Assembly: GCA_965213675.1 (NCBI GenBank)
Contig: OZ243916.1
Location: forward strand, 3,328,001 to 3,392,000
Direction: 5' to 3'
Source: an uncultured Candidatus Binatia bacterium
GTDB lineage: Bacteria; Desulfobacterota; Binatia; UBA9968; JAJDTQ01
DNA length: 64,000 bases
The notes under the pieces were generated by a model. The model saw only the letters and a program-made list of their open reading frames with translations. It ran no database searches and had not been told where the DNA came from. Positions 38,549 through 58,661 of the stretch are shown one piece after another. A program made the position numbers and the translations under genes. Each line of letters starts with the position of its first letter. The first letter of the stretch is position 1.

Positions 38549-39391
38549 ATGGTAATGCGCCATCAAAGAACGCCACGTCTGAAACCACTCCTGGATGCGG
38601 TCCCCCCCGGCTTCATGGTGGACACGCGGTGGCTCAGGGCCCAGGGCATCGACCCCAAGTCCATCCACGACTATGTCGCCCGCGGATGGCTTGAGCGGGT
38701 TGTCCGCGGGGTCTACCGCCGTCCGCTGCCGGAAGGCGCACGGGGCGCCTACGGAGAATCCTGGGAAATCCCCCTTCTCTCCCTGCAATGGCTCATGAAG
38801 TACGCCGTGCATCTGGGCGGAGAGAGCGCCCTCGACGTGCTCGGCTACGCGCATTACCTGAGACTCGGAGAAAAGCCCCGCGTTTGGTTCTACGGCGAGG
38901 CGCCGTCCTGGATCAAGCGGCTGCCGATCGGGACGCAGATCGTGATGCGCCGGCGCACGCTCTTCGGCGACGACCCGCTGGGCATCGAGGATGCCGGTTC
39001 CGGGGCGGACGGACCGGCGGTCGGCGTGTGGCGCTGGCCTCTCAAGGCGTCGTCTCCGGAGCGAGCCGTCCTGGAGGCCCTTGACGAGCTGCCGCGGCGC
39101 GCCGGCTTCGAGAACCTGGACAAGGTATTCGAGGGGCTGGCGTCGCTCCGGCCCGGGCGGCTCATGGCGCTTCTGACGGCTTGCCGCAGCGTAAAGGTGC
39201 GCAGGCTGTTCTTTGTCTTCGCGGACAGGCACGGGCACGAATGGCGCAAGCACCTGGACGCATCGAGGATCGACTTCGGGTCGGGACCGCGGGCCTTGGT
39301 GGAGGGCGGCAGGCTTCACCCGGACTACCGCATCTACGTGCCCCGGGCACTGGCGCGCGGGAAACCTGCGGCGGCGGACGGCAATGCTTGA
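38549..39391 (+). CDS. Type IV TA antitoxin, AbiEi family
   Basis: N-terminal wHTH (WLERVVRGVY), SSPERA.LE, C.SVKV.RLF; overlaps toxin start. Confidence 0.85.
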   Translation: MVMRHQRTPRLKPLLDAVPPGFMVDTRWLRAQGIDPKSIHDYVARGWLERVVRGVYRRPLPEGARGAYGESWEIPLLSLQWLMKYAVHLGGESALDVLGYAHYLRLGEKPRVWFYGEAPSWIKRLPIGTQIVMRRRTLFGDDPLGIEDAGSGADGPAVGVWRWPLKASSPERAVLEALDELPRRAGFENLDKVFEGLASLRPGRLMALLTACRSVKVRRLFFVFADRHGHEWRKHLDASRIDFGSGPRALVEGGRLHPDYRIYVPRALARGKPAAADGNA

Positions 39392-40298
39392 CCGGTACGT
39401 GGCGCAGGTACGCCTGCTGCTGAGCGTGCTGCCGGACATTGCGGGGGAGACCGCGTTCGCGCTCAAGGGCGGCACCGCCATCAACCTGTTCCACAGGGAC
39501 ATGCCGAGGCTGTCCGTAGACGTCGACCTGACCTACCTGCCGGTCGCGGACCGCCGGTCGTCGCTTGAAGCAATCGACAGTACGCTCGACCGCATCGCGG
39601 CGGCGGTAACCGCCCGCAATCCGCGGCTCAGGGCGCGCCGCATCGCGGGCGGCGGGGACATCGGCACGCGCATCATGGTGAGCGATGGCCGCGCGCGGAT
39701 AAAGATCGAGACCTCCCCGGTGACGCGAGGGGCGGTGCATCCGGCAAGGCCGATGACCGTGTGCGAGAGAGTCACGGAGCAATTCGGATTCGCCGAAGCG
39801 AACGTGCTGGCCTTCGAGGACCTGTACGGCGGGAAGCTCCATGCGGCGCTCGACCGCCAGCATCCGCGCGACATCTTCGACGTCAGGCTCCTGTACGACA
39901 ACGAAGGCATGACGGACGGCCTCTTCCGCACGTTCATGGTCTATTTGGCGAGCTCGAACCGTCCGATGCATGAGCTCCTGGCGCCGGCGGCGCTTCCCGG
40001 AGAGGATCTGTACTACGAAGAGTTCGCCGGGATGACGCGCGAGGCGGTATCCAGGGATGAACTGGCCGACGCGCGAGGCCGTCTGCACGCCGACATCGCA
40101 TCGCGGTTGAAGGGCGACATCGCGGCGTTCCTGCTCTCCCTCCACGATGCGGAGCCCGACTTTGGCCTGATCGGCTTGCCCGAGGCCGTGAACCTGCCGG
40201 CCGTGCGCTGGAAATTGGTGAACCTGGAGAAGCTCAAGCGGGAAAATCCGTACAAGCACGCGGTGGAGCGCGAAGCGCTCGAAAACCTCTTCCGGTAA
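39384..40298 (+). CDS. Type IV TA toxin, AbiEii nucleotidyltransferase
   Basis: LKGGTAINL, RLSVDVDL, GKLHAALDRQHPRD.FD. Confidence 0.9.
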   Translation: MLDRYVAQVRLLLSVLPDIAGETAFALKGGTAINLFHRDMPRLSVDVDLTYLPVADRRSSLEAIDSTLDRIAAAVTARNPRLRARRIAGGGDIGTRIMVSDGRARIKIETSPVTRGAVHPARPMTVCERVTEQFGFAEANVLAFEDLYGGKLHAALDRQHPRDIFDVRLLYDNEGMTDGLFRTFMVYLASSNRPMHELLAPAALPGEDLYYEEFAGMTREAVSRDELADARGRLHADIASRLKGDIAAFLLSLHDAEPDFGLIGLPEAVNLPAVRWKLVNLEKLKRENPYKHAVEREALENLFR

Positions 40299-40680: not shown

Positions 40681-41142
40681 TCACAAGACGCCTCCCTGGC
40701 GAGGCTGCTGGTCGGCTGACCGCATGAGGTTGCGGTGTTCGCGCATCCGGTAGCTGTTCCCGCGGATGTTGACGATGTGGCAGTGGTGCAGGAGCCGGTC
40801 GATGAGGGCAGCAGCCATGACCTCGTCGCCGAGGACGCTGCCCCAGTCCTCGAAGCCCTTGTTGGAGGTGAGCACGGTGGAGGCGCGTTCGTGCCTGGCG
40901 TTGATGAGCTGGAAGAAGAGCACGGCGCCGTCCTGAGTGACGGGCAGGTAGCCGATCTCGTCCACCACGAGCAAGGCGGGATAGGTAAGGACCCGCAGCC
41001 GGCGGGAGAGCTCGCCTGCGGCCTTGGCCTCCAGCAGCGACTCGATCAGTCCGGCCAAGGTTCCGTAGTAGACGCGGTGGCCGGATTCGGCGGCGGCGAC
41101 GGCCAGGCTGATAGCAAGATGAGTCTTGCCGACCCCGGGCGG
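40681..41142 (-). pseudogene. istB: istB 3' fragment
   Basis: GVGKTHLA, VDEIGY, LTSN, DRLLHH, GNSYR. Confidence 0.9.
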
Positions 41143-41150
41143 ACCCGCCA

Positions 41151-41627
41151 CATATTGCCCGTTATCACGGTCGCGAGATAACCATTCGTTACCCGTTCCA
41201 TCCTCGTGCTGGCGAGACGATGGCGGTCATCCGGCGCCACCGGTTCCGTGGCATGAGCGTCTTCGTTGTCAGGCAGCCCGACGGAACGCTGGCGCAGATC
41301 CCTGCATGGATGTGCGCCACGGAGGCGGGCGCGATGTCGGTGACGAAGTCCCCACGCCTTCCAGTGGCCGAACTGCACACGCTTCGCATTACCGTCGACG
41401 CCCTTCTATCATCGCTCTCCAAACCCCCCAACGAAGGAGAGCCACATGGGCAAGAACGGGATTCGTCGTCAGAGAGATCTGCTGAAGCTGTTGGAGCCAG
41501 GGCCGGTGCTCGCACCGGAGTTGCTCAAGTCGGTCGTGCCGCTGCTGGCGACACTGCTGCTGCAAGCGGTGGAAGCCGAGGCGCAAAGCGCCGCGGAAAC
41601 GGTGACGGTGGAGGGAGCGAGCAATGA
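41151..41627 (+). CDS. Small accessory protein of the recombinase element (resembles Y4bD/DUF5372-type); natural start absent in integrated state
   Basis: IRYPFHP..G and DGTLAQIPAWM motifs; first in-frame ATG (41220) lies after YPFHP; family name from recall. Confidence 0.55.
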   Translation, partial: HIARYHGREITIRYPFHPRAGETMAVIRRHRFRGMSVFVVRQPDGTLAQIPAWMCATEAGAMSVTKSPRLPVAELHTLRITVDALLSSLSKPPNEGEPHGQERDSSSERSAEAVGARAGARTGVAQVGRAAAGDTAAASGGSRGAKRRGNGDGGGSEQ

Positions 41628-41631
41628 GTAA
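41446..41631 (+). CDS. Small hypothetical protein preceding the recombinase
   Basis: AGGAG RBS, 61 aa, overlaps recombinase start. Confidence 0.4.
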   Translation: MGKNGIRRQRDLLKLLEPGPVLAPELLKSVVPLLATLLLQAVEAEAQSAAETVTVEGASNE

Positions 41632-43577
41632 GGTCTCGGCCGATCATCTCTCCCGTAAGGCGTTTGTCTACATCCGTCAATCCACCCCGGACCAGTTGAG
41701 ACACAATCACGAGAGCCGGCGGCGGCAGTACGGCCTGACGGTGAGAGCCCGGAAGTTGGGATGGGGCGAGACGGTGGTGATCGACGAGGATCTCGGCCGT
41801 TCGGGCAGTGGCACGGCACGGCCGGGGTTCGAGCGGTTGTTGTTGGCGATCTGCGAGGGACGGGTGGGCATTGTCCTGGCGTTGGAGGCTTCACGCCTCG
41901 CCCGCAACGGCCGCGACTGGCACACGCTGCTTGAGTTCTGCGGGCTGGTGGGGTGTCTGCTCGCCGACGAGGAGGGCGTCTACGACCCGCGCCTGCCCAA
42001 CGACCGTCTCCTTCTGGGCATGAAAGGGACCCTGTCGGAGCTTGAGCTGTCCACGATGCGTCAGCGCTCGCTGGAGGCGCTGCGCCAGAAGGCGCGCCGT
42101 GGCGAGCTCCTGCTGAACGTCGCCGTGGGCTACGTGAAGGTTCCGCGAGACCGGATCGTCAAGGATCCCGACCGGCGCGTGCAGGAGGCGATCAGCTTGG
42201 TGTTCCGCAAGTTCTCAGAGTTCCAGAGCGTTCGGCAAGTCCATCTTTGGCTCCGTCAGGAGGAAGTGCTGCTGCCGGCAGTGGACGGCGAGCCGGGTGA
42301 CGGTGGAAGGCGGCCGCAAGCGGGTCAGCCGGGGCCATCGCCGGGACCGCGAGGCCTGGGACGTGTTGATCGTGGATCACCATGAGGGTTATGTTTCCTG
42401 GGAGGAGTTCGAGAGGAACCAGCGTTTGATCGCCGACAACGCCAACTGCAAGGGGTTGATGACACGGGGCGCGGTTCGCCGTGGCGATGCCCTGCTGGCG
42501 GGGCTCTTGCGCTGCGGTCACTGCGGCCGGCGGTTGCATGTTTCCTATAGCGGCACCGACGGCTACTGCGTTCGCTACAGTTGCCGCGGGGCGCACCTCA
42601 ACCATGGGACTCGGCGCTGCATCTCGTTCGGCGGCGTTCGTGTGGACTCGGCGGTTGCCGAGGAGGTGCTACGGCTGTTGAGCCCGTTGGGCATCGAGGC
42701 CTCGGTGGAAGCCGTGACGATGAGGGAGGACAACGTCGCCGAGACGCGGCGCCAGGTGGAGCTGGGTTTGACCCAGGCGCGCTACGAGGCGGATCTTGCG
42801 CGTCGCCAGTACGATGCGGTGGACTCGCAGAACCGGCTGGTGGCGGCGGAGCTCGAGCGCAGATGGAACGAGCGGCTGGCGGAGGTGGCGAGGCAGGAAG
42901 AGCGGTTGGCGGCCACGGCGGCTGTCCAGCCGGATGCCTTGTCCGGCGAGGACAGAGAGCGGCTGCTGGCGCTCGGGGGCGACCTTGAGACGGTCTGGGA
43001 GCACCCCGGCGCCACGGCGGAAACCCGCAAGCGGATACTGCGCGCGGTGCTGGAAGAGATCGTCGCCACCTCGGCCGAGGACCGTATCGAACTCCTGCTG
43101 CACTGGCGCGGTGGCGATCACACCCGCCTGAGCGTTGCCCGCAACCGCACCGGGCAACATCGGTGGCGGACCAGCGCGGAGGTCGGCGAGCTGATCCGCG
43201 GCCTTGCCCGACAGCAGCCGGACAGCGCCATAGCGGCCACGCTGAATCGGCTGGGCAAGCGGACCGGCCGCGGCAACGCATGGACGGAGATGCGGGTCCG
43301 CAGCTTCCGGTGCCATCACACGGTTCCCGTGTACCGGCCGGGCGAGATGGGGGAACGCGGAGAACTCACTCTCAAGGAGACTGCGGGCAGGCTCAGGGTC
43401 AGCACGATGACGGTCCTGCGTCTCATCAGCGCCGGAACGATTACGGCGCGGCAACTCTGCAAGGGGGCGCCCTGGGCGGTGCCGGAGGCGCAGATCACGG
43501 GACTCGAAGGCGCGGAGGTGGTTCCCCACCATCCGCTAACAGCCAACACGGATCAGAAAGAACTGGATTTCCAATAA
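41624..43577 (+). pseudogene. Large serine recombinase, frameshifted near 42290
   Basis: YIRQST catalytic Ser, DLGRSG, SRLARN; second frame carries CGHCG Zn ribbon, coiled coil and HTH; junction appears to lack the NPxYAG segment. Confidence 0.85.
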
Positions 43578-43609
43578 CGTAGAGAGGTGTGCATTATGAA
43601 GCCCGACTC

Positions 43610-43950
43610 GGCGGGCCGATAAAAATGACGTTTTCGCGGCGATCCAGGAAGCCGAGTTCGTGGAGGCTCTCGATCTGCTCGCGCTTGATGCTGGGCTGGA
43701 AGGCGAAGTCGAACTGGGCCAGGGTCTTCACGGCCGGCAGCCGCGACGAGCGCATGGCGGTCTGGAGGCGGCGGTTGTTGCGCAACCCGATCTGGGCGTC
43801 CAACAACTGCTCGATAGCCTCGCTGGCGGTGGCCGCCCCGCTGTCGGCCTGGGCCAGGACGTCGTCGACGGCCTCGAGCGCGCCCGGCATCTTCAGGTCC
43901 GCCAGCATCGCCCGCAGCCGGTCGCGCCGGTTGCCTGCCTCGGCCCTCAT
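43610..43950 (-). pseudogene. istB: istB 5' fragment
   Basis: KTLAQFDFAFQPSI...ENVIFIGPP; ATGA overlap with istA. Confidence 0.9.
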
Positions 43951-44969
43951 GACACGGCCTCCGCATAGGCGCTGAGCGAGCGCCGCTCGACGTCTACGGT
44001 GACGGGCAGGGGGCGCCGGGCTTGCTGTGGAAGCGTGTGCATACCAAGGCGCCGATACGGGCAACTCGCCAACGGCAGCAGCGCCTGTAGCTCGTCACGC
44101 TCGAAGCGGTCCACCGGGCGCTCCCTGGTGGTGCCGTGCCAGCGCCGGTTCGCGGTTCCCTCAAGCCACAAGCGCACCTGCTCGTTCAGGTCCTCGTCGT
44201 TCAGGAACTCCCGGCCGTAGAAGAAGTTGTTGCGGATGTAGCGGATCGGGCGCTCCACCTTGCCCTTGGTTTGGGCTCGGTACGGCCGGCATGCCCGAGG
44301 CCGGAACCCCCAGTGCGCGGCGAACCGTAAGAAGTCCGCGTTCAACACCAACTCGCCCCCGCCCGCGCGGCCGTCCGACACCACCACCGAACGCATCTGG
44401 TCGAACTACAGCTCCTGCGGCACCCCGCCGAAGCACTCGAAGGCGCTCTCCAGCCCTTCGATCAGCACTGCCATCGTCTGCCGCCTGTAAAACCGCAGCC
44501 ACAACAGCCGGGAGTGGCTCAGAACCGTCACCAGAGCGTGCCGCCGCCCCCAGGGAAGCGTGAACGTCGCAAAGTCCACCTGCCCCTGCCGTCCCGCCGG
44601 CGTCTCGAACCGCACCACCGCCTCCGCCGTCTCCCGCGGCCGTACCGACCGAACGTACTCCCTCACACGGACGTACCCGCCCGTGTACCCCGCCCCTCGT
44701 ACCTCGTCGTATAGCCGCTTCGCCGACAACCGCGGATACTCCTCCAGTCGCGCCTCGATGATCCCCTTGTACGGATCCAGCTTGTGACACACCGCCGGTC
44801 TCGCCCTGTACCGCGTCCCGCCTCCCGACAGATCCCGGTCTAACTGCCCCGTCTCCACCCACTCGTGGATCGTCCGGCGACTCACCCCGAACCGCCGCGA
44901 CAGCTCCGTCTTCGTTACACCCCGTTCCAGATAGTGCCTAAGCAGCATCCTCGTCTCCCATCCGTGCAT
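43947..44969 (-). pseudogene. istA: IS21 transposase IstA with in-frame TAG at 44406-44408
   Basis: RFETPAG.QGQVDF, PQEL*FDQM, KGKVER; both ORF halves share a frame. Confidence 0.9.
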
Positions 44970-45089
44970 CTGTGCTCCGCTCCGTTCCTGTTGCTCTTGC
45001 CAACAGCGTGGACCCGAGCACTCACACCGGCAATCAATCTGTGCAGTTTTCGATTGCCATAAATGGGAAATTTACAGTTGCCACCAACA

Positions 45090-45285
45090 ATCCACACCAA
45101 ACCGTCGCGACAACTCCGCCCTGGTCACGCCTCGTTCCAGATAGTGCCTTATCAGCATCCTTGTCTCCCATCCGTGCATCAGTTCGCCGCTCCATTCCTG
45201 TTGGCTTTTCCCAACAGACTGGCCAACGTACACCTCCTCGCAATCTTCTATGTGCGACATCTTCGATTGACACAAATGGGACATT
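45090..45285 (-). pseudogene. Left-end relic of a second (outer) IS21 with the first ~30 istA codons
   Basis: MHGWETRMLIRHYLERGVTRAELSRRFGV (ATG 45179) duplicates the inner istA start; truncated IR 45252-45285. Confidence 0.8.
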
Positions 45286-45467: not shown

Positions 45468-45570
45468 CAAGCCATTGATTTTGTTAGAAACGTCTGTACA
45501 CCTTTCAGGCTCTGCATCTCCTTATTCTGTTATAACTACAATAATTGTATGAATAGTGTTGGCAACTATG
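45468..45570 (+). promoter_or_regulatory. AT-rich leader of the conjugation operon with an IHF-consensus site and palindromes
   Basis: CAAGCCATTGATT (45468-45480) fits the reverse IHF consensus; TGTACA 45495-45500, GTTATAAC 45529-45536, TACAATAATTGTA 45537-45549. Confidence 0.4.
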
Positions 45571-45617
45571 TGATTGTCGTGCTAGACTCTCAGCACTGAC
45601 CATGAGGAGGACCATAA

Positions 45618-45812
45618 ATGGCGAGAAAACCCACGATCCGCGAGCTTGAACAGCTCTTGGAGTCCGAAGAGGATACCCCCATCGAAATACTGCCGAACGG
45701 CGAGATTCGCGCCCGGGGGGGGAGCGATGCCGCAGAGCGGGGCTACAAGAAGCCTCTCACAATGCGAGAGGACCTCGGCGGCGAGTATGGGCGAGGGGGG
45801 ATCCGGGCATGA
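45618..45812 (+). CDS. 64-aa small protein, candidate peptide modifier
   Basis: Strong GAGGAGG RBS, ATGA coupling to next gene; C-terminus DLGGEYGRGGIRA. Confidence 0.75.
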   Translation: MARKPTIRELEQLLESEEDTPIEILPNGEIRARGGSDAAERGYKKPLTMREDLGGEYGRGGIRA

Positions 45813-46183
45813 ATCTGACAAGGGTTCGCCATGAGATCGCGGCCGCTCAGCAGTACTTCGACTACGTGGAGGGCCATCCAACCCCTGAAGGAGGCGTGAT
45901 TGCGTTGATCGCCTTGCAGACAAGCAGGGATGTGTACACGATGGCCGTCTCCTTCCCGGAGTCTTACCCGAACGGGATGCCGGAGGTGCATGTCAGGAGG
46001 CCCGCGTTGCGACCATCTCCCCACAGGTACACGGACAACAAAATCTGTTTCTTGCATCCGCGCATGTGGAACCCGGGGCGCCACAACCTCGCGTTCGTGA
46101 TTCAGCGAGCGGCGAAGTGGTTCGCGAAGTACGAGGTATACCTCGAGACAGGAAAATGGGCCGGCGTCGAAATTAAGCACTAG
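45809..46183 (+). CDS. Prokaryotic E2/UBC-like protein
   Basis: FPESYP..MP, PHRYTDNKICFL, WNP: UBC YP...P / H-x7-C / W.P pattern. Confidence 0.75.
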   Translation: MNLTRVRHEIAAAQQYFDYVEGHPTPEGGVIALIALQTSRDVYTMAVSFPESYPNGMPEVHVRRPALRPSPHRYTDNKICFLHPRMWNPGRHNLAFVIQRAAKWFAKYEVYLETGKWAGVEIKH

Positions 46184-46187: not shown

Positions 46188-46718
46188 ATGGCGATCGAAT
46201 TCAAGCCATTGCCGATGATGGCATTGCGAAGCAGGCCCGGCGAGGTCCTGGATGAGGTGTCCCGAGATGGCGCAGCGTTCCTCATCGAGAGAAACGGGCA
46301 ACAGAAGGCTTGTCTTGTACCGATATCGTACTTCCTTCCAGACATTCAGACGTCCCGCGTCGCGGAGGAGTTGGACAAGATCATCGACTCGAACGAGCAC
46401 TACCGGATCACAATCAGCGGCCAGCGGGAGATTCAACTCATATTCCGGGAGTTCAGTGGCGAAACGCAGGTCGACGTGACGGTAACGCTACCCCACGGCT
46501 ATCCGAACAAAGCGCCGGTTGTATACGCGGCGCCGATCGATGACGGGTGTCCACACCGTTGGCCGGATGGGACGTTGTGCATATACGGTGCCGTAGCTGT
46601 GTGGAACCCAGGAAAACACGACGTGATGCACGCGGTGGCGCTGTTCAGACGGTGGATCCAGCACTACTCGGTTTGGCGGCAGGCCGGACAATGGCCGACG
46701 GAGGGAACTGAACCATGA
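46188..46718 (+). CDS. Phd/YefM-like DNA-binding domain fused to an E2/UBC-like domain
   Basis: N-term LRSRPGEVLDEV..DGAAFLIERNGQQKACLVP; C-term LPHGYP..AP, PHRWPDGTLCIY, WNP. Confidence 0.7.
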   Translation: MAIEFKPLPMMALRSRPGEVLDEVSRDGAAFLIERNGQQKACLVPISYFLPDIQTSRVAEELDKIIDSNEHYRITISGQREIQLIFREFSGETQVDVTVTLPHGYPNKAPVVYAAPIDDGCPHRWPDGTLCIYGAVAVWNPGKHDVMHAVALFRRWIQHYSVWRQAGQWPTEGTEP

Positions 46719-47566
46719 AGGGTCGGTTGTTCGCGAGGATCGAACAGCTATTCGATGTGAAGGCGTTCGAAGACCTTTGGGTGTTGATTGCAGGGTGCGG
46801 ATCGGGCGGTGGCCAAGTGGCGCTGCAGTTGGCCATGTCTGGAGTGAAGAAGTTCATCCTGGCGGACACGGATAAGCTGGAAGTGGAAAATGTTATCCGG
46901 CACGTCTGCGGGATCCGGTACCTGGGTTGGAAGAAGACGGCGGCCCTTGCTGACGTCTTGAGTGACCGCAACCCGCAGATCGAAGTCAAAGAATTTTACG
47001 GCGACGTAACAGCGTGGCCGAGACTGGCAGAGGAGGTCGAGCGCGCGAGCGTTGTAGTCTTGGGGACGGACAACGAACCGAGCCGGTATCGGCTGAACGA
47101 GGTCTGTGTGGAAACGGCGACGCCGTTCACGGTTGGTCGAGTCTTTACGCGAGGAATTGGGGGTGAGGTGTACTCCTACAGGCCCGGGATCGGCGGCTGC
47201 CTGGCCTGCCTTGAGGGGCTTCTTGAGCGGAGCCAATACCGCGACGGTGTCAGGGAAATCGACCTCGTTTCGGAGGAGGAGCGGCAGAAGGTGTACGACC
47301 TTGAAATCGAGGAGATCAAGGACTCGCCCGGCCTATCGGTGGATATCGGGTTCATCGCAGCCTTCCACACGCGGTTCACTTTGGACGCACTGGGCCACGA
47401 AGCGGAGTCCCCACCTAAGTTTATGACGCCGATCGACCATAACTACCTAGTGTGGGGAAATCGAGCCGTGTACCCGTTCTCGAAGAACTTCGAACTGCAG
47501 CGCATGAAGCTGCCACCGCAGGACGGATGTCTGGTTTGTGGAGGACAAGATGAAGGCCAAGAGTAA
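46715..47566 (+). CDS. ThiF/MoeB-family E1-like adenylyltransferase
   Basis: GCGSGG, D.D...N..RH, K, GTDN..SR, Zn pairs CLAC and CLVC. Confidence 0.88.
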   Translation: MKGRLFARIEQLFDVKAFEDLWVLIAGCGSGGGQVALQLAMSGVKKFILADTDKLEVENVIRHVCGIRYLGWKKTAALADVLSDRNPQIEVKEFYGDVTAWPRLAEEVERASVVVLGTDNEPSRYRLNEVCVETATPFTVGRVFTRGIGGEVYSYRPGIGGCLACLEGLLERSQYRDGVREIDLVSEEERQKVYDLEIEEIKDSPGLSVDIGFIAAFHTRFTLDALGHEAESPPKFMTPIDHNYLVWGNRAVYPFSKNFELQRMKLPPQDGCLVCGGQDEGQE

Positions 47567-48467
47567 GGTGCGGGAGGTACGCTTGGAGATCCCGGGAGTC
47601 GTCCTGGAGAGCGTGTTCGAGGAGTGCGACCGCTATGACCGCGAAGAGACGGGGGGGCGCGTGGTAGGCCATTTCACCATAGATTTCGGGACGCTGGTGG
47701 TGCACGTCGGGGGAGTGATTGAGCCGGGTCCAAATGCCCACCGCACAAGCACCAGCTTCTTTCAAGACGGCGATCACCAAGCTGAGGTGTTCCGCCAACT
47801 CGAGGCGGAAGACCCATCGATCGAGCATCTTGGCAACTGGCATACACATCATGTGAACGGATTTCCGAGGCTGAGTGCAGGCGACGTGGCGACCTATCGC
47901 CGGATCGTGAACCACCAGTTACACAACCTGGATTTCTTCTACGCATTGCTTGTGACGAATAGAAACGAAGGCCGGACCGGACTGGACCGATATGCAGTAC
48001 GGCACCACGTGTTGTTTCGTGGTGAAGAGGCCGTCCACGAAATCCGACCGGCCGATGTACACGTAACGGTCGGGCCGAGGATCTGGCCAAAGGAGGCAGA
48101 CTCTTCCACACAAGCTCCTGGCGCAGGTGGCGCAGAGGACGACGGGGCGCGCGGGATTGTTGAAGTACGGGGGCGGGACCAAAGTGTCCTAGGCGTGCTG
48201 TGCCCCTCGATGGAACCCCGGGTGTCAAACCAAACGGGAACGTTCTTTTGGAAGGGTTCGCTGCCGTTAATCGACGGGTCCACGGTAGAGATTCGGGTCG
48301 CCGAAGTCGAAGACGACGGCGGACTGCTCTACTACCCCATCGTCTCAGGCGTGTCGGCGGATGTGGCTGAGTTGTGCGAAACACCATTCCCGAGCGCGTC
48401 CCACGCGGTCCGTGCGTTGGAGTCGCAGATAAATCGGGAGATTTACGAGTCCGCGATAAGGCGGTGA
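47550..48467 (+). CDS. JAB/MPN metalloprotease with C-terminal extra domain
   Basis: EETGG, GNWHTHH...LSAGD JAMM motif; GGAGG RBS before ATG 47550. Confidence 0.82.
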   Translation: MKAKSKVREVRLEIPGVVLESVFEECDRYDREETGGRVVGHFTIDFGTLVVHVGGVIEPGPNAHRTSTSFFQDGDHQAEVFRQLEAEDPSIEHLGNWHTHHVNGFPRLSAGDVATYRRIVNHQLHNLDFFYALLVTNRNEGRTGLDRYAVRHHVLFRGEEAVHEIRPADVHVTVGPRIWPKEADSSTQAPGAGGAEDDGARGIVEVRGRDQSVLGVLCPSMEPRVSNQTGTFFWKGSLPLIDGSTVEIRVAEVEDDGGLLYYPIVSGVSADVAELCETPFPSASHAVRALESQINREIYESAIRR

Positions 48468-48477: not shown

Positions 48478-49302
48478 ATGGAAGTGTTGACGCTTTACGT
48501 CGGACAAGGGAATTTCGCCGTCATCCGCCACGGTAGGCAGGCTATCGCAGTGGACACTCGGTGGCTTGCTGACCAATCAGACGATATCGAGTCGACGGTG
48601 GGCCGCTTCCTGCAACGGCGGGAACTTGTGGGCGTCGTGTTGACCGGGTTTGATGACGATCACGCCGATCCCGTCGGGCTGGACTGGTTTCTTGAGAACT
48701 ATACGCCCGGCTGGGTGATGTACCCAAAATACTACAAGGATACCGACAACGCGGAAGCGGTCTTCAACGTGGTTCGGAAGCACGAGCGGCGTCGCCAGGG
48801 CACAGCAAACCCGCTTGAGCGCGTTTCTGTACGGCTTGATCGGCTGGAGTCCCGGTACCTCGATGATCTGTCGGAGGAATTCCAGCTAGAGTTGTTCTCA
48901 CCCCACGTCGAGGACATGGACAGCTCTAACAACTGCAGCATCGTGCTGAAGGTGGAAGGAATCGGTCCGGGCGGATTTACATACTTGGTTACGGGCGACA
49001 CGGAGGTCCCCCGGTGGGACCGGATCGTCCAACTTTTCGACGACGCGTTGGACTCGGACGTTCTGGCGGCGCCACACCACGGATCGAAAAACGCCGCTCA
49101 CCCTGGGATGGTCTTGGCGGTCACACCGAACACGGTGCTTATCAGCGCGGGAGTCGACAACCAGTACGGGCACCCGGACAGAAAAGCGGTGCAGTTGTAT
49201 CTGCGGGTGGCGAAGCGCGTATTTCGGACAAACGTGCGGAACGGAATTTCGCTTCTCACAAGGCGAAACGGCGGGGAGTTCCAGACTACCCGTGTGCGTT
49301 AA
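48478..49302 (+). CDS. Metallo-beta-lactamase-fold hydrolase (ComEC/Rec2-like)
   Basis: VGQG, TGFDDDH, NNCS, TGD, APHHGS, NQYGHP. Confidence 0.85.
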   Translation: MEVLTLYVGQGNFAVIRHGRQAIAVDTRWLADQSDDIESTVGRFLQRRELVGVVLTGFDDDHADPVGLDWFLENYTPGWVMYPKYYKDTDNAEAVFNVVRKHERRRQGTANPLERVSVRLDRLESRYLDDLSEEFQLELFSPHVEDMDSSNNCSIVLKVEGIGPGGFTYLVTGDTEVPRWDRIVQLFDDALDSDVLAAPHHGSKNAAHPGMVLAVTPNTVLISAGVDNQYGHPDRKAVQLYLRVAKRVFRTNVRNGISLLTRRNGGEFQTTRVR

Positions 49303-49462: not shown

Positions 49463-50587
49463 ATGACCTTTGAACTACCAACACGCGGGCTCGTTTTTTG
49501 GCCAGTCGGAAACGGTGACAGCACCACCATCGTCATCGACCCCAAGACCTGTCTCCAGATAGACCTCAACCACCTCGAGAAATCCGAGGACGACGACGCC
49601 TCTTGGCCCGTGGTTGATGAACTTGTCAAGCACCTGCCCAAAGTCAACCGCCGCCCCTATCTCGCTGCGTTCGCGCTCACACATCCTGATCAGGACCATT
49701 GCCGGGGCTTCGCCAAACTCCTCAACGAAGTCGATATCGGTGAATTGTGGTTTACACCTAGAGTGTTCCGTGAGTACAAGAAGGACCTCTGCGACGACGC
49801 GGTGGCATTCAAGAAGGAGACGGAACGCCGCGTTCAGAAGGCTATCGACGCCAAGCACGCCCCAGGCTCGGGCGACCGCATTCGGGTCTTCGGCTACTCC
49901 GACCTGCTGGAAGAGGACGACTTCAAGGATTTCCCCAAGGATCGCCTAACTGTCCCCGGTAATGAACTTACCGTCGTCGACGAGAAGGACTTGGCTGGCC
50001 ACTTCCGCGCCTTCGTCCACGCTCCGTTCAAAGATGATGACGCGGGCGAGCGGAACGATACGAGCCTCGCCATGCAAGTCACGCTCCACGCTGGCCCGCA
50101 AAGACTTCGCGCGCTCCTTCTTGGAGACCTTCCCTACCCGATCATCAAGCGCATCTTCGCGATTAGTGACGCCGAGGACCTCGCCTGGAATGTGCTCCTC
50201 GCACCCCACCACTGCTCGAAGGCCGTAATGTACTGGAAGAATGACGGCGACGACGACGAGAAGCTCAAAAAGCACATCGTCGACGAAATGGACGAGGCGG
50301 CACAGGACCCGAATCGTGTCGTATCCAGCTCCAATCCCGTGCCGTCATCCAACAAGGCTGGCGACAACCCGCCTCACGCCAAGGCAAAGACGCAGTACGA
50401 GACCATCACCGACTCCTTCCTGTGTACGATGGACCAGGATGAACCTATCGTGGCTGAACTTGACCACCAAAGGATCGTTCTCGCCGGGGTTGCGACGGCC
50501 TCCAAGTCCGCATCGCAGGCCGCAGACGAAGCGCGCGGCTCAAACAGACCCCCCGACGGCGCCCACACCTACGGCTGTGGCAAATGA
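49463..50587 (+). CDS. Metallo-beta-lactamase-fold protein of the type found beside E2-E1-JAB fusions
   Basis: VGNGDS, THPDQDH, NDTS, GD, APHHCS, PPH; C-terminal tail HTYGCGK; GAGG RBS before ATG 49463. Confidence 0.85.
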   Translation: MTFELPTRGLVFWPVGNGDSTTIVIDPKTCLQIDLNHLEKSEDDDASWPVVDELVKHLPKVNRRPYLAAFALTHPDQDHCRGFAKLLNEVDIGELWFTPRVFREYKKDLCDDAVAFKKETERRVQKAIDAKHAPGSGDRIRVFGYSDLLEEDDFKDFPKDRLTVPGNELTVVDEKDLAGHFRAFVHAPFKDDDAGERNDTSLAMQVTLHAGPQRLRALLLGDLPYPIIKRIFAISDAEDLAWNVLLAPHHCSKAVMYWKNDGDDDEKLKKHIVDEMDEAAQDPNRVVSSSNPVPSSNKAGDNPPHAKAKTQYETITDSFLCTMDQDEPIVAELDHQRIVLAGVATASKSASQAADEARGSNRPPDGAHTYGCGK

Positions 50588-53500
50588 GTAATGGCTACAC
50601 GCTCGCTGGCGAACAGCTAAGGGAGATCGCCGAAACATCGGAAGGCACCGTTCAAATTCATGACGAAACCACACGGCCAAGCGGCTACCGCCAGTTCGAC
50701 GTAAGCATGCGCTTCGACGGCCTTCAACGTGTCGAAGACGGACTTGCAGTGCGAGCCCGTGAGCCATTCCGCGTCATTGTTTCACCTGCCTTCCCTTTCA
50801 AACATCCCGTTGTCGAGACGCCTCACTCTCGTTTCGCCGGCTTCCGGCACGTACAGTGGCGGCGGAGCCCCTGCCTGTACCAAAGCTCCTCCGATTGGGG
50901 CCCAAGCGACGGCATGTACGGCTTCATTACGCGCCTCGACGCCTGGATACGCGACGCCGCACTTAACAATCTCGACCCGGACGACGCACCCCTCCACCCA
51001 CCAGTCGAGTACCCCACGGTCCATCGCCTAATTGTGCCCAAGGCAAATACGCCGGCGGTCTCTGGCACGCCATGGTTTGGATTCGCCAAACTCCGCGAAA
51101 GGAACCATCGCACCGAGATCATTGGATGGGAAGAGAACAGCCAAGAAGGCTCTGACTTCGCGCCTGCAATCCTCCTCCACGAGAATCTTCCCTTCGAATA
51201 CCCCGAAACTGTCCACGCTCTACTGAAAGAACTCGAATTCCACGGAATCGACTATGTGCCCTTTGTCTTCCGACTTGCCGCCCAGGCACGACGCAGCGAC
51301 GCAGGCACACCGCTAACCGTAGTTCTTGGAACTCCGATGCGCCGCGTCGACCCGGGGGGGCCTACCCTTCAGCACTTGGCCGTGTGGGAGATTTCTGCCG
51401 ACGACGCGGACAAGCTGCGCGAGCTGAACATCTCCGCGCAGTTCCGCGGGTCACCGCGATGGGAAGCCGCGACGACGGCGGTCGCCGAATGGGCTGTGTT
51501 TGCCAAGGTGGGGTGGTGCATCGTCCGTGAGATGCGGCCCGAAGTGACCAGCAGACGCGACCATTCATCAGCCATGGCTTGGTTTCGTGGAAAGCGTGTG
51601 GCCATCTGGGGTTGCGGCGCCGTAGGCACTCACGTGGCGGAATCGATTGTACGCGCCGGGGCCAGAACCGTTGAACTCGTCGACAACAAGACTGTTGCAC
51701 CCGGTCTCCTAGTACGGCAAGTCTTCGAAGACGCCGACATCGGAGAGTTTAAGGCCCAAGCGCTCGCCGAACGACTTAAACGGATCGAACCTGACCTCGA
51801 GACACATGTTTCAACCGACGACCTTGTCCTACGTATCATAGGTCCACACCCGGTCCCGGAGGTGGACTTGATAGTCGACTGCACAGCTTCATCGGCCGTT
51901 CAGACAGCCCTCGAGCGAGCACTCCAGGCCGTCGACTCACGCCCCGCGATAGCTGCTGTATCCATCGATAGCCAAGCCGCCACGGCCATTGCCACTCTCT
52001 CTTCGCGCAACCACAGCGGTGCGACCCTCGACCTTGTTCGCCGGCTCAAGCTGGAAGCATGTAGCACACCGGCGCTTTCGAAGGTCCTTGAGGCATTCTG
52101 GCCAAGAACAACGCCAAGTGAGCGCTTTCAGCCAGAGCCCGGCTGTTCGGAACCGACGTTCATCGGTTCCGACGCAGATCTTGCCGCGCTATCTGCGCGC
52201 ATGCTGAATTCCATCACTCACGCTATTGGAAACCCCCGCGATGGCCACACGGGGGCAGGTTGGTTGTTGGAAGAATCGGGAGCGTTACGTGGTTTCGCGT
52301 GGCCTCCGGACCACACCCTGAGGGATGAGGGGCGGGGCTACTCCGTCAGGGTATCTTCACTGGCCGCGCGGGAAATGCGAGGATGGGCTAGGCGTTCCGC
52401 ACGTACGGTCGGCTCAACAGTCGAGACGGGCGGCCTCGTCTTCGGCGAGCTCAACGAAGCCGCGACCGTTCTCTGGGTAACAGATGTCGAGGGACCGCCA
52501 CCCGACAGCGAGGCAGCTGGGGATCATTTCACCTGCGGCACGGACGGCATGGAAACCGTTGCCCAAGAAAGGCAACGCAGGTTCCGTGGATCTGTAGACT
52601 GCCTCGGTAGTTGGCACACCCACCCAACGTCAGCACCCCATCCAAGTCGCGTCGACATCGGCGCTGTCATACAGCTTCTCGCCAACCCGGGTTCGACCCG
52701 TCGAACTTGCCTTGTTTTGATCCTCTCTGGTGACCCGGATGACCCAAGACTGGGCGCGTATGCCTTCAGAACAAAACTAGTCGGCGAAACGCTCATCCGC
52801 ATCCAACCAAGCGCGGCTGCAACCGCGTCCCTTGGGCCAAAGCCAAAGAAACCGCGCAACATCGGAACTGCCCTCTCAGGCGGAGGCTCGCGCGCCATCG
52901 CGTTCCACCTCGGGTGCCTGCGCGCCCTGCACGACCTCGATCTACTCAGCCGTGTTCAGGTAATTTCGAGCGTCTCCGGCGGGTCTATAATCGCGGCCAT
53001 GTACGCCTATTCTTGCGACTCGTTTCGGGAGTTTGACGCGCGTGTTGTAGAGCTTCTTCATCGAGGATTCAAACGGGATATCTTCCGCGAGGTGTTCAAG
53101 CTGGTTTCAATTGGGAAGATCCTGCGACGCCATGTCAGGGCGACCGCGTCTTTCCTATCTCGCACGTTCCTTCGGCTACTTCACGCCGTCGTGAGACCGG
53201 TTGTGGCTCATCGCCAAGGCCCGCCGCCGACCCGCACGTTCAGCCGCACGGAGGCGTTTCGCGACATCATTGCCACCTCCCAATTCGGTGACACCATCGT
53301 ACGCGACGTCGCCCGACATTCACTCCATACGGTCATCAATGCCACAGAACTACGAACCGGCTCCGCATTTCGGTTCGGAAGCAGCCAAAGCGGCTGCTGG
53401 CGATTCGGCACGATTCCCCCCGAAGACGCTCTGGTTGCAGACGCCGTGGCTGCCTCGGCGGCGTACCCGGCACTCTTCCCGGCACTCGAGCGCGAGTACC

Positions 53501-53994
53501 GCTTCACGAAGAACGGGTCCAGCACCGATGCCGCGCGCGTTCTGCTTACCGACGGTGGGGTCTTTGAGAACCTCGGCGTGAATCCGATGGAGCCGGGCCG
53601 GACACCTTCGGTCACCACTAACGTCTTCGACCCCGACTACATTATTTGCTGCGACGCGGGTGCTGGTCTATTCGATGATGACAGCTACCCGACACGTTTG
53701 CACACCCGGATATACAGATCGTTCCTCACGGTCTTTCGCAAGGTCCAAGACGCCACCCGAAAACGCCTACACCACCTTGCCGACGCCGGGGAAATCTCCG
53801 GCTTCGCGTTATGCTATCTCGGGCAGCAGGACAATGCCTTGCCCTGGGTACCAGCAGGTCTTCCTAGAAGGGATGAGGTTCGAGATTACCCTACCGACTT
53901 CGCCGCGATGTCAACGGAAGACGTCGATCGGTTAGCTCTCCGTGGAGAACTCCTGATGAGGCTTCTCGTTGCGTACTACCTCCCAGACCTCTAA
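50584..53994 (+). CDS. E2-E1-JAB-patatin four-domain fusion
   Basis: E2: FPFKHP, HVQW..SPCLY; E1: GCGAVG, DCTAS, EPGCSEPTF; JAB: ETGG, WHTHP....PS.VD; patatin: LSGGGSR, SSVSGG, DGG. Confidence 0.85.
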   Translation: MSNGYTLAGEQLREIAETSEGTVQIHDETTRPSGYRQFDVSMRFDGLQRVEDGLAVRAREPFRVIVSPAFPFKHPVVETPHSRFAGFRHVQWRRSPCLYQSSSDWGPSDGMYGFITRLDAWIRDAALNNLDPDDAPLHPPVEYPTVHRLIVPKANTPAVSGTPWFGFAKLRERNHRTEIIGWEENSQEGSDFAPAILLHENLPFEYPETVHALLKELEFHGIDYVPFVFRLAAQARRSDAGTPLTVVLGTPMRRVDPGGPTLQHLAVWEISADDADKLRELNISAQFRGSPRWEAATTAVAEWAVFAKVGWCIVREMRPEVTSRRDHSSAMAWFRGKRVAIWGCGAVGTHVAESIVRAGARTVELVDNKTVAPGLLVRQVFEDADIGEFKAQALAERLKRIEPDLETHVSTDDLVLRIIGPHPVPEVDLIVDCTASSAVQTALERALQAVDSRPAIAAVSIDSQAATAIATLSSRNHSGATLDLVRRLKLEACSTPALSKVLEAFWPRTTPSERFQPEPGCSEPTFIGSDADLAALSARMLNSITHAIGNPRDGHTGAGWLLEESGALRGFAWPPDHTLRDEGRGYSVRVSSLAAREMRGWARRSARTVGSTVETGGLVFGELNEAATVLWVTDVEGPPPDSEAAGDHFTCGTDGMETVAQERQRRFRGSVDCLGSWHTHPTSAPHPSRVDIGAVIQLLANPGSTRRTCLVLILSGDPDDPRLGAYAFRTKLVGETLIRIQPSAAATASLGPKPKKPRNIGTALSGGGSRAIAFHLGCLRALHDLDLLSRVQVISSVSGGSIIAAMYAYSCDSFREFDARVVELLHRGFKRDIFREVFKLVSIGKILRRHVRATASFLSRTFLRLLHAVVRPVVAHRQGPPPTRTFSRTEAFRDIIATSQFGDTIVRDVARHSLHTVINATELRTGSAFRFGSSQSGCWRFGTIPPEDALVADAVAASAAYPALFPALEREYRFTKNGSSTDAARVLLTDGGVFENLGVNPMEPGRTPSVTTNVFDPDYIICCDAGAGLFDDDSYPTRLHTRIYRSFLTVFRKVQDATRKRLHHLADAGEISGFALCYLGQQDNALPWVPAGLPRRDEVRDYPTDFAAMSTEDVDRLALRGELLMRLLVAYYLPDL

Positions 53995-58610: not shown

Positions 58611-58661
58611 GAAGCACTCGCGGGTAAACTTCGCCAGATCAAGCATGATCTGATTTGTCTT

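What the first reader, a model, noticed from the sequence alone, without database searches (positions are those of the whole stretch)
45618..45812. 64-aa peptide as a putative non-ubiquitin modifier with a cleavable YG tail
Seen: first gene, strongest RBS (GAGGAGG), coupled to the E2; charged, Gly/Pro-rich, short for a beta-grasp fold; ends DLGGEYG|RGGIRA. The neighbouring MBL ends HTYG|CGK, the same aromatic-Gly-plus-tail pattern. Established: Cap2-type E1s activate C-termini ending aromatic-Gly/Ala and JAB proteases cut after that residue. Inference: JAB trims after LGG, EYG or RGG and E1 adenylates the exposed Gly.
Basis: partly seen in the sequence, partly recalled or inferred. Interest (0 to 1): 0.85.

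Follow-up and report, generated by a model that had tools for sequence, protein, structure and literature searches.

The report
Conserved tag peptide heading E1–E2 operon
A tiny, very conserved protein that sits directly in front of a set of bacterial ubiquitin-type enzymes looks like their own non-ubiquitin tag, which would be a new sort of protein modifier in what is probably an anti-phage system.

Summary
The 64-codon ORF at 45618-45812 is a real gene. It has 592 protein homologues and 674 clusters at 50% identity. Codon differences over residues 45-57 are 323 synonymous against 27 non-synonymous.

It heads a conserved cassette: peptide, E2, Phd-E2, E1, JAB, MBL. An E2 follows the peptide in 48 of 48 genome loci found through the peptide. 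The peptide is present in 55 of 57 metagenome loci found through the E1.

Conservation stops at Tyr57 (…LGGEY), not at a Gly. The tail is 0-8 variable residues in most homologues, and many natural homologues end exactly at …LGGEY.

The peptide is not a beta-grasp in a low-confidence model. A co-fold with the E1 passes its controls, 0.66 against 0.00. It places the hairpin and residues 46-57 against the E1's nucleotide loop. Natural peptide-E2 fusions exist, as in BubAB.

Best reading: a free-standing, non-ubiquitin substrate/modifier of a split Cap2/Cap3-like module. Conjugation itself is not shown.

The adjacent MBL2 and E2-E1-JAB-patatin genes are a known 6A-MBL anti-phage system.

The parts
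45559..45588 (+). promoter-like site (TTGGCA-18-TAGACT, TG before the second hexamer), about 30 nt before the peptide's ATG
   Evidence: It matches 9 of 12 positions. The region holds 2 such sites against 1.8 expected, so this is weak and only the position fits.
45604..45610 (+). Shine-Dalgarno site GAGGAGG, 7 nt before the start codon
45618..45788 (+). conserved core of the peptide, residues 1-57: helix 7-15, hairpin 22-32 (…IEILPNGEIR…), variable linker 33-44, then the conserved C-terminal segment KPLTMREDLGGEY
   Evidence: LGGEY is exact in 245 of the 255 sequences that carry the motif. Y57 is the consensus in 0.99 of 133 rows.
45789..45812 (+). variable tail (residues 58-64, GRGGIRA) and stop codon; overlaps the Shine-Dalgarno site and the ATG of the E2 gene (ATGA)
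   Evidence: In homologues the tail is 0-8 residues in 107 of 137 representatives. Consensus fractions at positions 58-64 are 0.36 to 0.07.
45809..46183 (+). E2a, a 124-aa UBC-fold protein with catalytic-type Cys80
   Evidence: PADLOC E2 5.7e-13. Foldseek matches Ubc9/Ubc6 at E about 5e-5, using the model of the natural fusion P0279. C80, H72 and H92 conserved at 1.00, N88 and P89 at 0.95 or more, in 48 sequences.
46188..46718 (+). PhdE2, 176 aa: an N-terminal Phd/YefM-like domain fused to a second E2-like domain with Cys131
   Evidence: PhdYeFM 2.8e-5, below Pfam's cut-off. E2 4.2e-8. C131 conserved at 0.96. It is absent in 6 of 48 loci.
46715..47566 (+). E1, a 283-aa ThiF/MoeB/MccB-type adenylating enzyme with a Gly-rich loop (27-32), D119, four zinc cysteines (162, 165, 272, 275), and invariant C65, C131 and Y194
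   Evidence: ThiF 8.2e-27. MccB 1.5e-19, ThiF 4e-18, MoeB 6e-18, Cap2 1.4e-9..
47538..48467 (+). JAB/JAMM metalloprotease, 309 aa, with a complete E37…H102-x-H104…S113-x-x-D116 motif
   Evidence: Prok-JAB 1.6e-5. JAB 5.5e-18; the motif residues are conserved at 0.95 or more in 44 sequences.
48478..49302 (+). MBL1, a 274-aa metallo-beta-lactamase-fold protein (ComEC/Rec2-like), the last gene of the conserved cassette
   Evidence: ComEC_Rec2 7.3e-26 and 6A-MBL_enzyme 6.3e-10, both below their cut-offs. It is present in 42 of 48 loci. Its C-terminus is not conserved.
49463..50587 (+). MBL2, the MBL-fold protein of the 6A-MBL anti-phage system (the ORF is also open from a TTG at 49379); it ends …HTYG plus CGK
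   Evidence: context. NF058524 280.5 bits against a cut-off of 220; homologues are 374 aa, with a conserved TYG and a short tail. A 160-nt gap follows MBL1.
50584..53994 (+). E2-E1-JAB triple protein of 6A-MBL (cap2_3) fused to a patatin-like phospholipase, 1136 aa
   Evidence: NF058523 350.2 bits against a cut-off of 320. Prok-E2_A, ThiF, Prok-JAB and Patatin 2.3e-20.

Best explanation
The ORF encodes the dedicated substrate or 'tag' of the E1/E2/JAB enzymes that follow it. It is a small protein of about 57 residues that is not a beta-grasp. Its hairpin (residues 21-28) and its conserved C-terminal segment (46-57) dock on the ThiF-type E1, so that the C-terminus reaches the ATP site.

Inferred steps:
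1. Where a tail is present (0-8 variable residues; in some relatives a whole fused E2), the JAB protease removes it.
2. The E1 adenylates the carboxylate at the end of the conserved core. This is most likely Tyr57 of …LGGEY.
3. The acyl group passes to Cys80 of E2a and/or Cys131 of PhdE2, and from there to a target that is not known.
4. The JAB also reverses the conjugation.

The cassette behaves as a mobile, defence-type module. Its frequent companions are the MBL-fold protein and patatin-like phospholipases.

Shown here: the gene is real, the linkage to the enzymes is strict, the pattern of conservation, the natural ends at Tyr57, the natural fusions to E2, and intact catalytic motifs in all the enzymes.

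Inferred: E1 binding (model only), cleavage, adenylation, thioester transfer, the target and the biological role.
For: - Real and conserved: 592 homologues; 674 clusters at 50% identity with E<=1e-3 and 219 with E<=1e-10; 323 synonymous against 27 non-synonymous codon differences over residues 45-57 in 47 loci.
- Linkage both ways: an E2 follows directly in 48 of 48 loci found via the peptide, and an E1 is present in 47 of 48. Of 57 loci found via E1 patterns with room upstream, 55 carry the peptide. The 2 exceptions are 5'-truncated cassettes.
- First gene: no upstream gene is shared among 44 loci, apart from a divergent patatin gene in 5.
- Coupling: the ATGA overlap occurs in the window and in 24 of 48 loci.
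- C-terminal signature: LGGEY is exact in 245 of 255 sequences. Entropy jumps from 0.06 bits at Y57 to 2.25 at position 58. Tail lengths are mostly 0-8.
- Natural stops right after Y57: 12 of 137 representatives, 4 of 48 genome loci, 15 of 55 metagenome loci and a Mesorhizobium plasmid.
- Co-fold of the E1 with peptide 1-57, ATP and Mg: ipSAE 0.69/0.53/0.66, median 0.66, best of 3 controls 0.00. In calibration the mark was reached by 58 of 80 solved complexes and 2 of 110 mismatched pairs. The runs share at least 88% of contacts, and the partner's pLDDT is at least 63. The interface is peptide 19, 21-28, 46-57 against E1 27, 29-32 (Gly-rich loop), 117-119 (T118-D119), 141-151 and others.
- Natural peptide-E2 fusions with a 1-2 residue linker in 6 clusters. 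This is the arrangement of BubAB, which its operon's peptidase cleaves after the Ubl's last Gly (passages).
- A non-Ubl substrate has a precedent: the disordered C-terminus of cGAS sits in the Cap2 adenylation site (passages).
- The cassette has no Ubl or CD-NTase of its own, yet the E1, both E2s and the JAB keep their catalytic residues.
Against: - No experiment, and no RNA data.
- A C-terminal Tyr as the activated residue has no precedent that I know of (recall). The tool did not report which peptide residue lies at the ATP.
- The co-fold used my own alignments with ligands riding along, so the calibration holds only roughly. E1-tail complexes are solved, so part of the score may come from memory.
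- The overlap between interface and conserved residues (0.87 against 0.53 mean consensus fraction) is not independent of the alignment that was fed in.
- The peptide-alone model is weak: pLDDT 70.8, pTM 0.29.
- In the model of the natural fusion, the peptide part stays at pLDDT 60-81 while the E2 part is at 95-98. No confident docking on E2 is seen.
- Fusion to E2 fits an accessory-domain reading equally well.
- Loci whose peptide has no tail still keep the JAB, so tail removal cannot be the JAB's only job.
Confidence: 0.5

Rival explanations
1. Same modifier role, but the activated residue is Gly55. The JAB cuts …LGG|EY plus tail, as the first reader's 'LGG' option has it. The invariant Glu-Tyr would then be a recognition element for the protease that is thrown away.
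For: L53-G54-G55 are each the consensus in 0.98 of rows. LGG resembles the ends of ubiquitin-type modifiers (recall). In the CBASS and Bub passages I read, a C-terminal Gly is the residue mutated or exposed. In the neighbouring 6A-MBL family the conserved end is a Gly.
Against: E56 and Y57 are as invariant as the Gly pair, at 0.99 each. Residues removed from other modifiers are variable (recall). Many natural proteins end exactly at Y57 and none in the sets I looked at ends at G55. The co-fold with a peptide ending at Y57 passed. That result does not discriminate between the two sites.
Confidence: 0.15
2. The peptide is not conjugated. It is a non-covalent subunit or pseudo-substrate regulator that binds the E1 (plugging the adenylation groove) and/or the E2. 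It would hold the module inactive or act as an adaptor.
For: Fusions to E2a (6 clusters) and to a Phd/YefM domain (P0282) are what one expects of interacting subunits. The co-fold shows binding, not chemistry. A terminal Tyr is an odd acyl donor. Proteins with and without tails coexist, so no processing is needed in this reading.
Against: The module would then have an E1, two E2s with conserved Cys and an active-looking JAB, but no substrate of its own. The sharp stop of conservation at the C-terminus, with natural ends there, is typical of an end that must be free. The strongest RBS sits on the first gene, which fits a stoichiometric substrate. This last point is inference.
Confidence: 0.2
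3. The peptide is a RiPP-type precursor. An MccB-like E1 would modify its C-terminus (peptidyl-nucleotide or other) to give a small toxin or signal, and the JAB would act as the maturation protease.
For: The best solved relatives of the E1 by sequence are MccB (1.5e-19), and PaaA also appears (2.1e-11). Both act on short ribosomal peptides (recall). The order, a small first gene followed by the enzymes, is RiPP-like.
Against: The match to MccB covers only the adenylation domain (query 17-170 against MccB 111-264). There is therefore no counterpart of MccB's N-terminal part. ThiF and MoeB score almost the same. The peptide does not end in Asn, which is MccA's rule (recall). Two UBC-fold E2s with catalytic Cys, and the PADLOC matches to CBASS Cap2/Cap3, point to transfer onto proteins. 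No exporter or immunity gene is conserved in the cassette.
Confidence: 0.05
4. It is a chance ORF or a leader with no protein product.
For: It is short, has no family match in Pfam, PADLOC or NCBIfam, and the protein Atlas gave no usable hit.
Against: 592 homologues across many phyla, the codon-position pattern 45/4/328, and a strong RBS.
Confidence: 0.01

Closest known systems
Type II CBASS: Cap2 (E2-E1), Cap3 (JAB) and the CD-NTase C-terminal tail
   Same: An E1/E2/JAB set acts on a substrate that is not a beta-grasp. The substrate's disordered, conserved C-terminus enters the E1 adenylation site, and the JAB cuts after the last conserved residue (passages of the 2022 preprint). The window's E1, E2a and JAB match PADLOC's CBASS models at 4e-25, 5.7e-13 and 5.5e-18.
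   Different: There is no cyclase in the cassette. The E2 and E1 are separate genes, and there are two E2s. The substrate is a free 57-64-residue peptide rather than an enzyme. Its conserved end is Tyr, not Gly. An MBL-fold protein is always attached.
6A-MBL anti-phage system (E2-E1-JAB triple protein plus MBL; Iyer et al. 2006, Table 1 row 6a; named in NCBIfam)
   Same: It has the same three enzyme types plus an MBL-fold protein, and a full 6A-MBL pair lies directly downstream in the window. The MBL of that system carries a conserved …TYG end with a 0-4 residue tail. This is the same logic as the peptide's end.
   Different: The cassette's E1, JAB and MBL1 score 44.5, 44.4 and 38.7 bits against cut-offs of 320 and 220. 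Its genes are split, and a second E2 with a Phd domain and the peptide are added. MBL1 has no conserved C-terminus. A profile comparison of the peptide with the MBL2 tail is not significant: probability 1%, E 0.051.
Bub pathway (BubAB Ubl-E2 pre-protein cleaved by the operon's peptidase)
   Same: The modifier is encoded directly in front of, or fused to, the E2. The fusion is cut to free the modifier's C-terminus (passages). Here the peptide-E2 fusions are P0279, P0280, P0286, P0287, P0145 and P0285.
   Different: BubA is a beta-grasp Ubl that ends in Gly. Bub works through Tyr/Ser oxyesters and a serine protease. Here the E2s keep Cys and the protease is a JAB.
Bil (BilA-D) bacterial ISG15-like conjugation
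   Same: Separate Ubl, E2, JAB and E1 genes in a defence operon (passages).
   Different: BilA is made of beta-grasp domains. Bil has no MBL, no second E2 and no Phd domain.
Pup (and UBact)
   Same: A small tag of about 60 residues, largely disordered, with a Gly-Gly-acid motif near its end (recall, not tested here).
   Different: Pup is ligated by PafA/Dop-type enzymes through the side chain of its terminal Glu (recall). Here the neighbours are E1/E2/JAB, the motif is followed by an invariant Tyr, and no sequence match to any Pfam family was found.

Membership tests
Ubiquitin-like beta-grasp modifiers (Ub, ThiS/MoaD, BilA, BubA) | beta-grasp fold | tested here: not met
   The AF2 model built from 133 sequences shows a helix at 7-15 and a hairpin at 22-24/29-32, with the rest coil. 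Its pLDDT is 70.8 and pTM 0.29, so confidence is low. Foldseek gave 7 rows, all with E>6. No Pfam match.
Ubiquitin-like beta-grasp modifiers (Ub, ThiS/MoaD, BilA, BubA) | the last conserved residue is Gly (usually Gly-Gly) | tested here: not met
   Gly54-Gly55 are followed by E56 and Y57, each at 0.99. Position 58 is G in 0.36 of rows. Natural ends are at Y57.
Ubiquitin-like beta-grasp modifiers (Ub, ThiS/MoaD, BilA, BubA) | encoded with, and bound by, a cognate E1 through the C-terminal tail | tested here: inconclusive
   The gene linkage is met. Binding is supported only by a model: ipSAE 0.66 against a best control of 0.00, with 58 of 80 solved and 2 of 110 mismatched pairs reaching the mark.
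Type II CBASS | a CD-NTase cyclase in the operon | tested here: not met
   No cyclase family appears among the 8 proteins. The PADLOC 'Cyclase' rows (PDLC00816) touch only positions 457-542 of a 542-position model, and they do so with the E2 proteins.
Type II CBASS | an E2-E1 fusion (Cap2) and a JAB (Cap3) | tested here: inconclusive
   The homologous domains are present but split into separate genes. The JAB matches NCBIfam Cap3 at 25.3 bits against a cut-off of 200.
6A-MBL anti-phage system | NCBIfam equivalog scores for cap2_3 (320 bits) and the MBL enzyme (220 bits) | tested here: not met
   For the peptide cassette the E1 scores 44.5, the JAB 44.4 and MBL1 38.7 bits. The cut-offs are met by the neighbouring pair, MBL2 at 280.5 and the 1136-aa protein at 350.2.
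Microcin C-type RiPP (MccA/MccB) | a precursor ending in Asn, and an MccB with an N-terminal peptide-binding part | tested here: not met
   The peptide ends …GGEY plus a tail. The alignment to MccB covers only the adenylation domain, 17-170 against 111-264. The Asn rule is recalled.
Pup/UBact | a PafA/Dop ligase partner and a C-terminal GGQ/GGE | not tested
   I made no search for PafA/Dop in the genome. The neighbours are E1/E2/JAB. The motif is GGEY.

The most novel reading that the evidence does not exclude
This is a new class of prokaryotic protein tag. A roughly 57-residue peptide, neither a beta-grasp nor an enzyme, is activated by an E1 at a C-terminal tyrosine. It is then relayed through two cysteine E2s onto targets as the working principle of a widespread, horizontally spread defence cassette. 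It would be the first E1-E2 cascade whose modifier is a free peptide with a non-glycine acyl end. It would also suggest that the tails of CD-NTases and of the 6A-MBL MBL proteins are built-in versions of such tags.
Probability: 0.35. Interest if true: 0.9.

Novelty: new variant of a known kind. Interest (0 to 1): 0.78.

Why it matters
Bacterial E1/E2/JAB modules are now known to conjugate either beta-grasp Ubls (Bil, Bub) or a whole enzyme (CBASS).

A free, tiny peptide that is not a beta-grasp, serving as the substrate, would widen what counts as a ubiquitin-type modifier. It would also show that an E1 can work on an end other than Gly.

It would give a handle on a conserved cassette that current libraries name only piecemeal. 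In a RefSeq plasmid the genes are called 'E2', 'Phd/YefM antitoxin', 'ThiF' and 'hypothetical'.

The peptide is short enough to synthesise, so the chemistry is directly testable. The cassette also occurs in a cultured Mesorhizobium plasmid.

Tried and rejected
- Peptide against Pfam, PADLOC and NCBIfam: no family.
- Protein Atlas: no usable hit.
- Foldseek of the peptide model: nothing below E 6.
- Homology between the peptide and the C-terminal module of the 6A-MBL MBL proteins. I saw by eye an acidic stretch, a hairpin with a PNG-type turn, a linker and a conserved end. hhalign gave probability 1% and E 0.051 over 17 columns, which is not significant. Only the architecture is alike.
- Long proteins with 6-11 matched stretches (P0148, P0156, P0226, P0254). 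The three I fetched (P0148, P0226, P0254) look like tetratricopeptide-type repeat proteins by eye, not scanned. I dropped them as spurious. P0156 was not fetched and was dropped on the same pattern.
- Fourteen of the 269 fetched sequences had no LGGEY-type motif or were longer than 250 aa. They were left out of the tail counts.
- An apparent peptide-E2 fusion in L020 was an error of my ORF-extension script. The peptide there ends …LGGEY followed by a stop.
- Docking of the peptide on E2a in cis, using the model of the natural fusion P0279: the peptide part has only pLDDT 60-81, so there is no conclusion.
- Expression: no RNA holder is listed for the stretch.
- Phage records: no match to the peptide.
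- Literature: 'LGGEY' found 7 unrelated papers. 'PF26395' found none. Searches for JAB / E1-like / E2-like / MBL / patatin gave only Iyer et al. 2006 and the CBASS, Bil and Bub papers. None of the passages I read describes this peptide.
- The primary 6A-MBL paper (Van den Berg et al. 2024) is not held. I saw it only as cited in a review and a preprint.
- The listing of cluster members could not be run.
Full report
**The observation.** An ATG at 45618 opens a 64-codon frame that stops at 45810-45812. GAGGAGG lies 7 nt upstream and is the best Shine-Dalgarno match of the operon. The stop overlaps the ATG of the next gene (ATGA). A promoter-like site lies about 30 nt upstream, but such sites are no more frequent there than in shuffles, 2 against 1.8. 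The genes that follow on the same strand are:
- an E2 (124 aa);
- a Phd/YefM-like domain fused to a second E2 (176 aa);
- a ThiF-type E1 (283 aa);
- a JAB protease (309 aa);
- an MBL-fold protein (274 aa);
- after a 160-nt gap, a second MBL (374-402 aa);
- a 1136-aa E2-E1-JAB-patatin protein.

The island has 0.55-0.60 G+C against 0.65-0.69 in the flanks. It lies among IS21 and IS5 fragments, a split serine recombinase and an AbiEii-type gene.

**Is it a gene?** Yes.
- A search of the clustered protein collection found 592 proteins at E<=0.01. The best 120 are 75-98% identical and nearly all are 64 aa long.
- A profile search of the 50%-identity representatives found 674 clusters at E<=1e-3 and 219 at E<=1e-10.
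- Across 47 loci, residues 45-57 differ from the window by 323 synonymous and 27 non-synonymous codons. The base differences fall 45/4/328 on the three codon positions. Residues 5-33 give 602 against 364.
- The genome holds one copy.
- No Pfam, PADLOC or NCBIfam family covers the peptide. In a RefSeq plasmid it is annotated 'hypothetical protein'.

**Linkage.**
- Forty-eight genome loci were found through two peptide patterns. By their record titles they come from MAGs labelled Gammaproteobacteria, Alphaproteobacteria, Acidobacteria-type, Gemmatimonadetes, Binatia, Myxococcota, Planctomycetes, Verrucomicrobia, Elusimicrobiota, Armatimonadetes, Nitrospirales and others, plus one Methanosarcinales MAG.
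- In 48 of 48 an E2a homologue follows at once. The E1 is present in 47, the JAB in 45, and MBL1 and PhdE2 in 42 each. Several of the misses are contig ends. L035 is a remnant with only the peptide (…LGGEH) and the E2.
- The ATGA overlap occurs in 24 of 48, and a 1-nt overlap in 5 more (starts chosen by my script).
- No upstream gene is shared among 44 loci with 1.5 kb or more upstream, apart from a divergent patatin gene in 5.
- The reverse test used 80 metagenome loci found through two E1 patterns. Of the 57 with at least 1250 nt upstream of the E1, 55 carry the peptide. The other two are 5'-truncated cassettes.
- After MBL1 the content varies. The next ORF is a patatin-like phospholipase in 11 of the 32 scanned. 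In others it is a 6A-MBL-like pair.
- A cultured strain, Mesorhizobium sp. AR10, carries the cassette followed by a patatin gene on a plasmid.

**Where conservation stops.**
- In 133 aligned sequences, L53, G54 and G55 are the consensus in 0.98 of rows, and E56 and Y57 in 0.99. Position 58 falls to 0.36, and positions 59-64 to 0.07-0.19.
- LGGEY is exact in 245 of the 255 sequences with a recognisable motif. Fourteen of the 269 fetched sequences were left out.
- Among 137 representatives, the tail after Y57 is 0-8 residues in 107. Twelve end exactly at Y57. Where position 58 exists it is A (48), G (46), S (12), C (4) or something else (15).
- Of 109 short tails, 33 end in Ala-Ala. I cannot explain this.
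- Natural stops right after Y57 also occur in 4 of 48 genome loci, in 15 of 55 metagenome loci and in the Mesorhizobium plasmid.
- In the window's close relatives, position 58 can be R, H, E, T, W, Q, F or N.
- The Gly/Arg-rich tail of the window is encoded by the purine-rich stretch that serves as the E2 gene's ribosome-binding site. Most loci show GGAG-like strings there.

So the last residue that matters is Tyr57. LGG|EY cannot be excluded.

**Fold and binding.**
- AlphaFold2 with 133 sequences gives a helix (7-15), a hairpin (22-24, 29-32) and coil, with pLDDT falling from 86 to 53 along the chain and pTM 0.29. It is not a beta-grasp, but the model is weak. Nothing in the PDB resembles it.
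- I co-folded the E1 (alignment of 41 sequences) with peptide 1-57 (132 rows), ATP and Mg. It scored ipSAE 0.69, 0.53 and 0.66, median 0.66, against 0.00 for the best of three controls.
- In calibration the mark was reached by 58 of 80 solved complexes and 2 of 110 mismatched pairs. The runs share at least 88% of contacts, and the partner's pLDDT is at least 63.
- The confident interface is peptide 19, 21-28 and 46-57 against E1 27 and 29-32 (the Gly-rich nucleotide loop), 117-119 (T118, D119), 141-151, 169-172 and 242-270.
- This is how Ubl tails and the cGAS tail lie on their E1s, according to the passages I read.
- The caveats are the tool's own. It used my alignments, ligands rode along, and the score may owe something to memory of solved E1 complexes. 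The agreement of the interface with the conserved blocks (0.87 against 0.53) is not independent of the alignment.

**The enzymes look active.**
- E2a keeps C80, H72, N88 and P89. PhdE2 keeps C131.
- The E1 keeps the Gly-rich loop, R62, D119 and four zinc cysteines, plus invariant C65, C131 and Y194.
- The JAB keeps E37, H102, H104, S113 and D116.
- The model of E2a has the UBC fold.
- By sequence, the E1's nearest solved relatives are MccB, ThiF and MoeB. Cap2 is further away.

**Fusions.**
- Six clusters encode the peptide fused in frame to E2a, with only 1-2 residues after …LGGEY.
- One protein from a single short contig has two tandem peptide copies before the E2.
- One has a Phd/YefM domain in front of the peptide.
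- A modifier-E2 pre-protein that the operon's own peptidase cuts after the modifier's last residue is known from Bub. The same fusions could equally mean a mere subunit.

**What it is most like.**
- The cassette is a split relative of the Cap2/Cap3 module of type II CBASS and of 6A-MBL.
- The window's downstream pair passes NCBIfam's cut-offs for 6A-MBL, at 280.5 against 220 and 350.2 against 320. That operon type was first listed as row 6a by Iyer et al. 2006 (passages). It is cited as a validated anti-phage system (passages; the primary paper was not seen).
- The peptide cassette itself falls far below those cut-offs.
- The 6A-MBL MBL proteins end in a conserved …TYG followed by a 0-4 residue tail. 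Twelve of 120 end at the Gly. More distant ones end …PRAG with or without a tail.
- This suggests that in 6A-MBL the MBL itself is the E1 substrate, as the cyclase is in CBASS, and that in the split cassette the peptide takes over this role. MBL1 has no such end. This paragraph's conclusion is inference.

**Verdict.** It is wrong in detail, because the conserved end is a tyrosine, not a glycine.
- I give 0.5 to the modifier reading with Tyr57 as the activated end.
- I give 0.15 to the same reading with Gly55.
- I give 0.2 to a non-covalent subunit or regulator.
- I give 0.05 to a RiPP-type precursor.

I found no description of this peptide in the searches named above. I rate it a new variant of a known kind of system, with interest 0.78.

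Noticed in passing
window 49463-50587 and 50584-53994: This pair is a 6A-MBL anti-phage system by NCBIfam cut-offs, with a patatin-like phospholipase fused to the C-terminus of the E2-E1-JAB protein. In 113 of 120 close homologues the MBL carries a conserved …TYG-type end followed by a short variable tail of 0-4 residues in all but one. Twelve of 120 stop at the Gly. More distant ones end …PRAG with or without a tail. This suggests that the MBL itself is the substrate of its E1, as the cyclase is in CBASS.
   Followed up: partly
P0270, P0282: P0270 has two tandem copies of the peptide in front of an E2, on a single 1354-nt contig. P0282 has a Phd/YefM domain fused in front of the peptide. In the window the Phd domain sits on the second E2 instead.
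   Followed up: partly
homologues of window 45789-45809: Of 109 short tails after …LGGEY, 33 end in Ala-Ala and 7 in Val-Ala. Position 58 is a small residue (A, G, S or C) in 110 of 125 representatives that have one. I have no explanation for either pattern.
   Followed up: no
window 39213-40298 (+): An AbiEii-type nucleotidyltransferase toxin gene (Pfam 2.8e-39) lies just upstream of the IS fragments. It is another abortive-infection-type gene in the same island.
   Followed up: partly
window 40681-45284 and 56475-57554: IS21 fragments are present: IstB on the minus strand, and two N-terminal IstA-like pieces. There is also a large serine recombinase split over two overlapping frames (41624-42385 and 42297-43577) and an IS5-type transposase. 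The island has lower G+C than its flanks.
   Followed up: partly
window 54257-55312 (-): A class-3 lipase-like gene (Pfam 9.8e-23) converges on the end of the 1136-aa gene. Whether it belongs to the defence island is unknown.
   Followed up: no
L035 10001-10571: This is a remnant locus with only the peptide and the E2. The peptide there reads …LGGEH instead of …LGGEY, and no E1, JAB or MBL hit follows in the rest of the locus.
   Followed up: no
window 46715-47566: Besides the four zinc cysteines, the E1 has two invariant cysteines (C65, three residues after the conserved Arg62, and C131) and an invariant Tyr194 in the region after the first zinc pair. Which of them, if any, carries an intermediate is open. 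Bub E1s use a tyrosine.
   Followed up: no
window 58660-64000: By eye, and not tested with any tool, the ORFs downstream look like a LexA-type repressor followed by an ImuA/ImuB/DnaE2-type mutagenesis cassette. The Mesorhizobium plasmid cassette also lies next to an 'error-prone DNA polymerase' gene.
   Followed up: no
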